The position numbers and the translations under genes are program-made. From contig JACDDU010000007.1 in NCBI GenBank assembly GCA_013816845.1, positions 23,176 through 87,175 on the forward strand: a stretch of 64,000 nt of DNA. Reading direction: 5' to 3'. Below are positions 58,961-59,211 of the stretch, piece by piece. Each line of letters starts with the position of its first letter. Within the stretch, counting starts at the first letter, position 1. The notes beneath the pieces were generated by a model. The model worked only from the letters and a program-made list of their open reading frames with translations. It did not search any database and was not told the DNA's origin. This stretch comes from Gammaproteobacteria bacterium (GTDB lineage: Bacteria; Pseudomonadota; Gammaproteobacteria; DSM-16500).

Positions 58961-59074
58961 ATGAAGAAATTAGCAGGAATTATCTTAGCAGTAATGATGG
59001 CTTCCGTTGCAGTTACCGGTTGCTGCAACAAAACATGTGACCAACCAGCCCCAATGTATAAAGGCGAAGGCTAG
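58961..59074 (+). CDS. Micro-lipoprotein A, 37 aa (MKKLAGIILAVMMASVAVTGCCNKTCDQPAPMYKGEG); not in the ORF track
   Basis: Strong RBS AAGGAG; lipoprotein signal with lipobox VTGC; paralogous to the next ORF. Confidence 0.85.
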   Translation: MKKLAGIILAVMMASVAVTGCCNKTCDQPAPMYKGEG

Positions 59075-59097
59075 AAACTAGCTTACAAGGAGTTGTC

Positions 59098-59211
59098 ATG
59101 AAAAAATTAGCAGGAATTATCTTAGTGGTAATGATGGCTAGCGTGGCAGTAACAGGTTGCTACACAAAGACCTGCTGTAACAAAACACCTGTTTACAAAG
59201 GTGAAGGCTAG
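59098..59211 (+). CDS. Micro-lipoprotein B, 37 aa (MKKLAGIILVVMMASVAVTGCYTKTCCNKTPVYKGEG); not in the ORF track
   Basis: RBS AAGGAG; same length, lipobox and YKGEG end as copy A, with many synonymous codon differences. Confidence 0.85.
   Translation: MKKLAGIILVVMMASVAVTGCYTKTCCNKTPVYKGEG

What the first reader, a model, noticed from the sequence alone, without database searches (positions are those of the whole stretch)
58961..59211. Two unannotated 37-aa Cys-rich lipoproteins ending YKGEG, wedged between murI and dapB
Seen: two tandem ORFs below the ORF-track cutoff, each with an AAGGAG RBS, a 20-aa signal and lipobox VTG|C, sharing a promoter and terminator. The mature 17-mers are CCNKTCDQPAPMYKGEG and CYTKTCCNKTPVYKGEG: three Cys each, arranged differently, with an invariant YKGEG end encoded by different synonymous codons, which indicates selection on the peptide. 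The flanking genes make D-Glu and meso-DAP for peptidoglycan. Established: Braun's Lpp and Coxiella LimB are small lipoproteins joined to peptidoglycan through Lys by L,D-transpeptidases, and chlamydial OmcA is a small Cys-rich lipoprotein of a disulfide-linked envelope. Inference: a minimal outer-membrane-to-peptidoglycan tether combining a Lys acceptor with disulfide cross-linking, perhaps for a resistant cell form.
Basis: partly seen in the sequence, partly recalled or inferred. Interest (0 to 1): 0.85.

Follow-up and report, generated by a model that had tools for sequence, protein, structure and literature searches.

The report
Tiny conserved lipoproteins ending in YKGEG
Two real, tandem genes encode 17-residue lipid-anchored peptides from a previously undescribed family confined to Aquicella and its relatives, whose best-conserved feature is a Tyr-Lys-Gly motif that makes them plausible, but unproven, ultra-short tethers between outer membrane and cell wall.

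Summary
Two 37-codon ORFs (58961-59074 and 59098-59211, + strand) lie between murI and dapB. Each has an AAGGAG ribosome-binding site, a 20-residue signal peptide and a VTG|C lipobox; one promoter-like site precedes the pair and one hairpin terminator follows it.

They are genes, not chance ORFs. Homologues occur in 37 of 86 genomes of the same GTDB family (Aquicella lineage) and in about 150 distinct metagenomic sequences. They usually lie convergent with dapB, and pooled pN/pS is about 0.14. No Pfam, NCBIfam, PDB or Rfam family matches. Only this genome carries a tandem pair.

- **Conserved:** the lipid Cys, a Pro-rich spacer, and [Y/M]-K-G-[E/D] with its Lys 12-18 residues from the lipid Cys.
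- **Not conserved:** Cys richness. 65% of members have one free Cys, and one distant member has none.
- **Variable tails:** some orthologues at the same locus add His-rich or Ala/Pro/Lys-rich tails after the YK[G/D] motif.

The genome has 8 YkuD L,D-transpeptidases, no Lpp, and a separate LptM-like gene.

Best reading (about 40%): a minimal lipoprotein linked through the motif Lys to peptidoglycan, working like Coxiella LimB or Braun's Lpp without belonging to either family. Disulfide cross-linking as the core function is poorly supported.

The parts
58884..58913 (+). Sigma-70-like promoter candidate (TGGTCA, 18 nt, TATAAT) in the 161-bp divergent murI / lipoprotein intergenic region
   Evidence: 10 of 12 matches. 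This is a consensus match only; transcription was not tested.
58948..58953 (+). AAGGAG ribosome-binding site of copy 1, 7 nt before the ATG
   Evidence: read directly from the sequence.
58961..59074 (+). Micro-lipoprotein copy 1: 20-aa signal peptide with lipobox VTG|C, mature peptide CCNKTCDQPAPMYKGEG
   Evidence: It matches the family profile at E = 6.8e-19. It is P0041.
59087..59092 (+). AAGGAG ribosome-binding site of copy 2, 5 nt before the ATG
   Evidence: read directly from the sequence.
59098..59211 (+). Micro-lipoprotein copy 2: same signal peptide with 1 substitution, mature peptide CYTKTCCNKTPVYKGEG
   Evidence: It is 78% identical in protein and 75% in DNA to copy 1, with pS 0.59 and pN 0.16. 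It is P0071.
59226..59252 (.). G+C-rich hairpin flanked by an A run and a U run: likely bidirectional intrinsic terminator shared by the lipoprotein pair and the convergent dapB
   Evidence: -18.8 kcal/mol, z = -3.1; only sub-threshold sRNA-terminator look-alikes.
57978..58799 (-). murI (glutamate racemase), divergent neighbour
   Evidence: PF01177 at the equivalent position in L036.
59254..59985 (-). dapB (dihydrodipicolinate reductase), convergent neighbour; the most conserved synteny partner across genera

Best explanation
The two ORFs are a co-transcribed, anciently duplicated pair of genes for a lineage-specific family of micro-lipoproteins (mature length 15-22 residues).

Inferred steps:
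1. Sec export.
2. Lgt/Lsp/Lnt processing at VTG|C.
3. The triacylated Cys sits in a membrane, most likely the inner leaflet of the outer membrane.
4. The short Pro-rich peptide extends into the periplasm.
5. One of the genome's eight YkuD L,D-transpeptidases joins the epsilon-amino group of the conserved Lys in the Y-K-G-E motif (mature position 14 here) to meso-DAP of a peptidoglycan stem.

This would be a covalent tether about 40-47 A long at full extension (13 residues at 3.1-3.6 A each). It would be a functional analogue of Coxiella LimB and Braun's Lpp.

The conserved second Cys is probably accessory, serving an intermolecular disulfide or metal contact. In some orthologues the same N-terminal module carries His-rich or Ala/Pro/Lys-rich tails, so the module may act as a general anchor.

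**Shown here:** the genes, their selection, the motif conservation, and the L,D-transpeptidase (LDT) and Lpp context.

**Inferred:** localisation, the Lys-mDAP bond, and the enzyme responsible.
For: - **Real genes under purifying selection.**; pooled pN/pS is 0.135.
- **Canonical lipoprotein signal in every member**.
- **Lys-centred motif is the most conserved mature feature.**
  - In the alignment of 88 members, the motif Lys (K34) is at least 90% conserved.
  - Among the 154 distinct mature sequences, 69% have [YMLFV]K[GD][EDQSN] and 90% have a Lys within the last 7 residues.
  - The motif Lys lies at mature position 12-18, mode 15.
- **YKG survives where the N-terminus does not.** Sister genera have CTCGPAAPTNYKGEG, CSCPGPQQHVSYKGETH, CCSSQPIQQPMPQPMNYKGG and CAAKQAAEDQSAMYKGSSFSSQ.
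- **The motif is a site, not merely a C-terminus.** Long orthologues keep PYK[DG] internally and add tails. P0142 lies at the same murI-[X]-dapB locus.
- **Genome context.** There are 8 YkuD paralogues over the cut-off and no Lpp.
- **Precedent in the nearest studied relatives.**
  - LimB is linked by an internal Lys (Lys21), giving muropeptides GM-AEJ-AKL and GM-AEJ-PSAKLGT.
  - Lpg1810 is linked through the tail KTPAPPEKDIT.
  - Predicted FadL tails end ...EPYK.
  - The Coxiella OM-PG gap is about 35 A.
  - Sources: PMC11841132 with its supplement, and PMC12729407.
- **Resemblance to Lpp.** E. coli Lpp ends ...Tyr-Arg-Lys, so an aromatic residue next to the acceptor Lys is shared. This rests on established knowledge and was not tested here.
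Against: - No biochemical or expression evidence exists for any member.
- The acceptor Lys is followed by Gly-Glu-Gly, not by a free carboxylate as in Lpp.
- One member has YRGEG (P0113), and a few divergent members lack a tail Lys (L029/L083 CYSKSCDTACPASTGRPSSH).
- Tyr at +2 is 87% conserved. In E. coli reporter studies, aromatic +2 residues can cause inner-membrane retention (Seydel et al. 1999, from memory). From the inner membrane a 17-mer could not reach the wall.
- LDT copy number is high throughout the family, including genomes without the gene. No specific LDT co-occurs with it.
- The invariant Cys+6 within the genus is not explained by a pure tether model.
Confidence: 0.4

Rival explanations
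1. A lipid-anchored peptide that acts non-covalently. The conserved CYSKxC...YKGE peptide docks onto a partner envelope protein, for example a peptidoglycan synthase or hydrolase, an OMP or assembly machine, or an inner-membrane complex if Tyr+2 retains it there. It would work as a small regulator or chaperone, in the manner of LptM, LpoB or small membrane-protein modulators.
For: - Both ends of a very short peptide are strongly conserved, which is typical of a binding epitope.
- Tyr+2 is 87% conserved, which suggests a sorting or interaction determinant.
- The invariant Cys+6 within the genus could form a mixed disulfide with a partner.
- There is precedent for tiny lipoproteins next to DAP-pathway genes: an LptM-like gene lies upstream of dapF in this same genome.
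Against: - No partner gene is co-located. The neighbours are housekeeping genes on other transcription units.
- A separate LptM-like gene already exists.
- The N-terminal motif is replaced in sister genera while YKG is kept.
- The Pro-rich middle varies in length like a spacer, not like an epitope.
Confidence: 0.3
2. A Cys- and metal-centred function. The free Cys residues, plus His-rich tails in some orthologues, bind metal or build intermolecular disulfides that stiffen the envelope, as in chlamydial OmcA or the metal-binding activity reported for LimB.
For: - C-x4-C is present in 92% of filtered members.
- The window copies have two free Cys each.
- Orthologues P0124, P0132, P0134, P0135, P0137 and P0142 carry poly-His or HHxxHH tails.
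- LimB is described as metal-binding (PMC11841132).
Against: - The first Cys of C-x4-C is the lipidated one, so it has no free thiol.
- 65% of members have only one free Cys.
- A distant member (L081) has none, yet keeps YKG.
- Most members, including both here, have no His.
- The positions of the additional Cys are not conserved, even between the two paralogues.
Confidence: 0.15
3. The ORFs are chance or decaying open frames, or the region is a non-coding RNA or regulatory leader of murI or dapB.
For: The ORFs are very short, and no transcript or protein data could be obtained.
Against: - The frame, lipobox and length are conserved in 37 genomes and about 150 distinct sequences.
- pN/pS is about 0.14 with saturated synonymous sites.
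- Both copies have strong ribosome-binding sites.
- No Rfam family reaches threshold.
- The genes are on the opposite strand to murI and dapB.
Confidence: 0.03

Closest known systems
Coxiella burnetii LimB (CBU1224a), a small outer-membrane lipoprotein linked to meso-DAP through an internal Lys (Lys21)
   Same: - Very small lipoprotein in a related intracellular gammaproteobacterial lineage.
- Conserved Lys a short distance from the lipid anchor: position 21 in LimB, 12-18 here.
- The Lys is internal rather than C-terminal.
- The host genome is rich in YkuD LDTs and lacks Lpp.
- Some orthologues here carry His-rich tails, in keeping with LimB's reported metal binding.
   Different: - No detectable sequence relationship was found.
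- LimB's linked peptide is ...PSAKLGT.... The window peptides contain no AKL, and the motif here is YKGE.
- Profile searches did not reach outside the Aquicella family.
- The full LimB sequence could not be retrieved, so homology is untested.
- Attachment here is hypothetical.
Braun's lipoprotein Lpp (Pfam PF04728) with LdtA/B/C, Escherichia coli
   Same: - Abundant-type small lipoprotein architecture: a lipobox plus a Lys acceptor preceded by Tyr (Lpp ends ...YRK).
- The proposed chemistry is the same: Lys epsilon-NH2 joined to mDAP by a YkuD enzyme.
   Different: - Lpp is a 58-residue trimeric coiled coil spanning about 85 A, with the Lys as its last residue.
- These are 17-residue Pro-rich peptides with Lys at -4.
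- There is no PF04728 match.
- Three metagenomic homologues (P0003, P0019, P0068) carry the JGI name 'outer membrane murein-binding lipoprotein Lpp'. The window's two copies, the only members scanned, give no PF04728 match.
LptM / YifL (Pfam PF13627), a small lipoprotein encoded next to dapF/lysA
   Same: A tiny lipoprotein with a conserved N-terminal mature motif, encoded next to a DAP-pathway gene.
   Different: - The motif is different: CG.KGPLY in LptM, CYSKxC...YKGE here.
- There is no PF13627 hit for these peptides.
- The genome has its own LptM-like gene (MLRFIILLFLLSTLLACGQSGKLYLVDQ...) directly upstream of dapF.
Chlamydial OmcA (small Cys-rich lipoprotein of the disulfide-linked outer membrane complex)
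   Same: A small lipoprotein with several Cys, in an intracellular bacterium.
   Different: - Only one non-lipidated Cys is conserved here, and it is not universal.
- The peptide is much shorter.
- No sequence similarity was tested or found.
- No partner Cys-rich OmcB-type gene is nearby.

Membership tests
Bacterial lipoproteins (Lgt/Lsp/Lnt substrates) | N-terminal signal peptide with a basic n-region, a hydrophobic core and a lipobox [LVI][ASTVI][GAS]C | tested here: met
   MKK, then 15 hydrophobic residues, then V-T-G|C in both copies. All homologues keep it. Globomycin-sensitive processing was not testable.
Braun lipoprotein Lpp (PF04728) | Match to the LPP profile / heptad-repeat coiled coil of about 58 residues | tested here: not met
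   No Pfam hit at E <= 10. The best whole-genome PF04728 hits score 13.5 bits against a cut-off of 29.1 and lie elsewhere. The mature peptide is 17 aa and Pro-rich.
Braun lipoprotein Lpp (PF04728) | C-terminal Lys (last residue) covalently bound to mDAP | tested here: not met
   The Lys is the fourth residue from the end (YKGEG). The covalent bond is not testable with these tools.
Coxiella LimB | Sequence similarity to LimB, including the PG-linked segment PSAKLGT | tested here: inconclusive
   The segment is absent from the window peptides.
Coxiella LimB | Internal Lys linked to meso-DAP by an L,D-transpeptidase | not testable with these tools
   Only context is available: a conserved Lys and 8 YkuD genes.
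LptM (PF13627 LptM_cons) | Match to the LptM_cons profile (CG.KGPLY motif) | tested here: not met
   No Pfam hit. The best PF13627 hit in the genome is a different 43-aa lipoprotein upstream of dapF on contig C11.
Entericidin A/B (NF007319) | Match to the curated model above its cut-off | tested here: not met
   13.5 bits against a cut-off of 86, covering the signal peptide only.
Chlamydial OmcA-type Cys-rich lipoproteins | Many conserved Cys forming intermolecular disulfides | tested here: not met
   65% of family members have a single non-lipidated Cys. The positions of extra Cys are not conserved. One member has none.

The most novel reading that the evidence does not exclude
The CYSKxC-(Pro spacer)-YKGE module is the shortest covalent outer-membrane-to-peptidoglycan tether yet seen, with a 17-residue mature peptide. 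Its Y-K-G acceptor motif would be read by a dedicated YkuD transpeptidase, fixing an unusually narrow OM-PG gap of about 35-45 A in Aquicella-lineage bacteria. The same module would serve as a portable 'wall-anchoring tag', onto which evolution has appended His-rich metal-binding tails or Ala/Pro/Lys-rich tails at the same locus.
Probability: 0.3. Interest if true: 0.75.

Novelty: new variant of a known kind. Interest (0 to 1): 0.55.

Why it matters
How Gram-negative bacteria without Braun's lipoprotein fasten the outer membrane to the wall has only recently been opened up, through beta-barrel N-termini, LimB, Lpg1810 and OutB.

A family of 15-22-residue lipopeptides with a conserved Lys motif would make a very simple natural model. 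It sits in LDT-rich, Lpp-less relatives of Coxiella and Legionella. It could be used to study:

- acceptor recognition by L,D-transpeptidases;
- how tether length sets periplasmic width;
- how extra domains are displayed on such an anchor.

The family also shows that sub-40-codon lipoprotein genes are missed by length cut-offs and by the curated family databases, since it has no Pfam or NCBIfam model.

If the tether idea fails, the family is still a clean, taxonomically restricted micro-lipoprotein of unknown role. One member comes from a cultured host (Aquicella lusitana), so it can be tested directly.

Tried and rejected
1. **Known families.** Pfam and NCBIfam scans gave nothing, or signal-peptide-only hits far below cut-offs. 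A PDB profile search found only signal-peptide look-alikes. Rfam found only sub-threshold terminator look-alikes.
2. **LptM identity.** Rejected, because a separate LptM-like gene lies upstream of dapF.
3. **Lpp identity.** Rejected.
4. **Retrieving the LimB sequence for a direct comparison.**
   - The Battisti 2011 and Sandoz 2021 papers are not held.
   - A search for 'CBU1224a' found no paper.
   - A back-translated PSAKLGT scan of 401 genomes of the class gave only chance hits.
   - Only the PG-linked fragments AKL and PSAKLGT could be taken from a supplement.
5. **Homologues outside the GTDB family.**
   - There were none among 16 genomes of other families with the profile.
   - No dapB-adjacent micro-lipoprotein was found in the 9 genomes, out of 30 searched from other families, that gave a DapB match.
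   - murI lies in a different context there.
6. **Co-occurrence with LDT number**.
   - Genomes of the genus with the gene have a median of 6 YkuD hits, against about 3.5 without it.
   - The absentees are small or incomplete genomes, so this is confounded and was not used as evidence.
8. **First genome-contig scan with the full alignment.** It failed for lack of a conserved stretch. A subset alignment worked.
9. **RiPP or bacteriocin precursor idea** (conserved leader, variable core in the two paralogues). Rejected, because the 'leader' is a standard lipoprotein signal, the core is conserved among orthologues, and no modifying enzymes are nearby.

Full report
**1. What is in the sequence**

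Searches confirm two 37-codon ORFs on the + strand.

- ORF1 (58961-59074) is MKKLAGIILAVMMASVAVTGCCNKTCDQPAPMYKGEG.
- ORF2 (59098-59211) is MKKLAGIILVVMMASVAVTGCYTKTCCNKTPVYKGEG.
- Each is preceded by AAGGAG, at 58948-58953 and 59087-59092.
- Each has a basic n-region, a hydrophobic core and a V-T-G|C lipobox after 20 residues. The mature peptides are 17 residues long.
- murI (57978-58799) is divergent from the pair and dapB (59254-59985) is convergent with it.
- A promoter-like site (TGGTCA, 18 nt, TATAAT) lies at 58884-58913.
- The 23-nt gap between the ORFs has no terminator.
- A strong hairpin with a U run at 59226-59252 follows ORF2 (-18.8 kcal/mol, z = -3.1). It can also terminate the convergent dapB.
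- The two copies are 75% identical in DNA. Twelve codons differ synonymously and eight non-synonymously, and the YKGEG codons differ at two synonymous sites.

**2. Are they genes?**

Yes.

- The window lies in a 2.8-Mb, 97%-complete genome. Its relatives are labelled 'uncultured Coxiellaceae' MAGs.
- The genus includes Aquicella lusitana. The homologue in G015 equals P0013, AQULUS_18030, named 'hypothetical protein / Lipoprotein'.
- A single homologous ORF of 35-44 codons sits between murI and dapB in most genomes of the genus.
- A profile of the family finds it in 37 of 86 genomes of the GTDB family. That is 30 of 38 genomes in the genus and 6 of 21 genera.
- The word-indexed search of 5.8 billion proteins gave 96 clusters. 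The exhaustive profile search of 1.84 billion representatives gave 81 hits at E < 1e-3.
- Among equal-length orthologue pairs, pS is about 0.64 and pN about 0.087, a ratio of 0.135. For the two paralogues, pS is 0.59 and pN is 0.16. The duplication is therefore old and both copies are maintained.
- In this data set, only this genome has the tandem pair at the locus.
- A reduced 1.4-Mb genome of the genus (G014) has murI and dapB directly adjacent with no such gene, a clean loss.
- No Rfam family explains the region.

**3. Anatomy of the family**

Within the genus the mature consensus is C-Y-S-K-[ST]-C-[DEQ]-Q-P-x-P-x-x-[YM]-K-G-E-G.

The following figures come from 154 distinct mature sequences that pass a lipobox-plus-second-Cys filter.

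| Feature | Share |
|---|---|
| C-x4-C | 92% |
| Tyr at +2 | 87% |
| [YMLFV]K[GD][EDQSN] | 69% |
| [YMLVF]KGEG as the exact C-terminus | 43% |
| YKGEG as the exact C-terminus | 18% |
| A Lys within the last seven residues | 90% |
| Only one Cys besides the lipidated one | 65% |

The motif Lys sits at mature position 12-18, with a mode of 15.

Two further observations bear on function.

First, sister genera replace the N-terminal motif but keep the end:

- CTCGPAAPTNYKGEG
- CSCHAPEMNYKGETR
- CSCPGPQQHVSYKGETH
- CNCTPQPQPMPLKGETMR
- CCSSQPIQQPMPQPMNYKGG
- CAAKQAAEDQSAMYKGSSFSSQ, which has no second Cys at all

Four of these seven loci lie convergent with dapB (L076, L077, L079, L081), but none lies next to murI. 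Y-K-G is thus the deepest conserved mature feature, and dapB, not murI, is the recurrent neighbour.

Second, some orthologues extend beyond the motif.

- P0124 is ...VPYKDEMPPEKVMTHHHHHHHHHHQDAAQ.
- P0132, P0134, P0135, P0137 and P0142 have HHxxHH-rich tails.
- P0096, P0140, P0152 and P0156 have Ala/Pro/Lys-rich tails.
- P0142 lies at exactly the same bcp / Gly-zipper lipoprotein / rlmJ / murI / [X] / dapB locus.

The short N-terminal segment therefore behaves as a self-contained module, and the Lys motif works as an internal site as well as a near-terminal one.

**4. Context relevant to mechanism**

- The genome encodes 8 YkuD L,D-transpeptidase domains above Pfam's cut-off, plus one weak hit.
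- It has no Lpp.
- It has a separate LptM-like lipoprotein directly upstream of dapF.
- In the nearest experimentally studied relatives, LDT-rich and Lpp-less Coxiella and Legionella attach outer-membrane proteins to mDAP.
  - The lipoprotein LimB is attached through an internal Lys (Lys21). Its muropeptides are GM-AEJ-AKL and GM-AEJ-PSAKLGT.
  - The FadL-type Lpg1810 is attached through a Lys in its Pro-rich tail KTPAPPEKDIT.
  - Similar predicted tails end ...EPYK.
  - The Coxiella OM-PG distance is given as about 35 A, against about 85 A in E. coli (PMC11841132 and its supplement; PMC12729407).
- A lipid-anchored 17-mer with a Pro-rich spacer puts Lys14 at most 40-47 A from the membrane. 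This is an estimate from 3.1-3.6 A per residue, and it fits that scale.

**5. Most likely mechanism**

I commit, at about 40%, to a minimal covalent tether.

1. The peptide is exported and lipidated, and resides in the inner leaflet of the outer membrane.
2. A YkuD enzyme then transfers a peptidoglycan tripeptide acyl group onto the epsilon-amine of the motif Lys.

The genes, their selection, the motif conservation and the enzymatic context are shown. Localisation, the bond and the enzyme are inferred.

Points against:

- The Lys is not C-terminal.
- One member has Arg in its place (P0113).
- A few divergent members lack a tail Lys.
- The conserved Tyr+2 might be an inner-membrane retention signal.
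- The genus-invariant Cys+6 is unexplained.
- LDT number does not track the gene once genome size is considered.

A speculative variant is that the G-E-G end is trimmed to expose ...Y-K-COOH, resembling Lpp's ...Y-R-K. Nothing tested here bears on this.

**6. Rivals**

- **(a) Non-covalent regulatory or chaperone lipopeptide that binds a partner (about 30%).** Its position in the inner or outer membrane is left open.
- **(c) Not a gene (about 3%).** This is effectively excluded.

**7. Comparison with known families**

- **Lpp:** not a member. There is no PF04728 match, no coiled coil, and the Lys is not terminal.
- **LptM:** not a member, since the genome has a separate LptM-like gene.
- **Entericidin:** not a member.
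- **OmcA:** not OmcA-like in Cys content.
- **LimB:** the relationship is unresolved. The architecture is parallel, but the known LimB fragment PSAKLGT is absent and the full LimB sequence could not be obtained.
- **JGI 'Lpp' labels:** three metagenomic homologues carry the JGI name 'outer membrane murein-binding lipoprotein Lpp'. The window's two copies, the only members scanned against Pfam, give no LPP match.

**8. Verdict**

The Lys-tether half gains real comparative support; the disulfide-lattice half and the murI linkage do not.
- The family is undescribed in the curated libraries and restricted to one GTDB family. If the mechanism holds, I rate it a new variant of a known kind (LDT-attached tether lipoproteins).
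- Interest is 0.55. It would interest envelope specialists and is directly testable in a cultured species, but it currently rests on inference.

Noticed in passing
window 56877-57077 (- strand): A 66-aa glycine-zipper lipoprotein (MKKIILSALALCFSITFLIGCTNRDMGTVGGAALGGVAGSALTGG...) lies two genes from murI. It is conserved at the same position in related loci and is tandemly duplicated in L024. It is a second small lipoprotein of this neighbourhood (bcp / Gly-zipper lipoprotein / rlmJ / murI / micro-lipoprotein / dapB).
   Followed up: partly
L032 1489-1620 (G000 contig C11, about 78566-78697): A 43-aa LptM-like lipoprotein (MLRFIILLFLLSTLLACGQSGKLYLVDQKTETLTVADTYPNPD) lies immediately upstream of dapF. 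Its PF13627 score of 19.9 bits is below the cut-off, but the synteny is the classic one. This genome therefore has two different micro-lipoproteins beside DAP-pathway genes.
   Followed up: partly
P0124, P0132, P0134, P0135, P0137, P0142; L036 4001-4297: Orthologues at the same murI/dapB locus carry long poly-His or HHxxHH-rich C-terminal tails after the conserved PYKD motif. They look like lipid-anchored metal-binding proteins and recall the metal binding reported for Coxiella LimB.
   Followed up: partly
L050 (G014 contig C51): A 1.4-Mb, 96%-complete genome of the same genus has bcp, murI and dapB directly adjacent. It has lost the micro-lipoprotein, rlmJ and the Gly-zipper lipoprotein, and it has only 3 YkuD genes. 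This looks like envelope simplification in a reduced genome.
   Followed up: partly
P0100 (708 aa) and P0164 (639 aa): Two long proteins match the hydrophobic/lipobox part of the profile 5-8 times each. They are probably repetitive or spurious translations rather than relatives.
   Followed up: no
P0003, P0019, P0068: JGI/IMG names three members 'outer membrane murein-binding lipoprotein Lpp'. The window's two copies, the only members scanned against Pfam, give no LPP match, so the name is probably an automatic transfer from signal-peptide similarity.
   Followed up: partly
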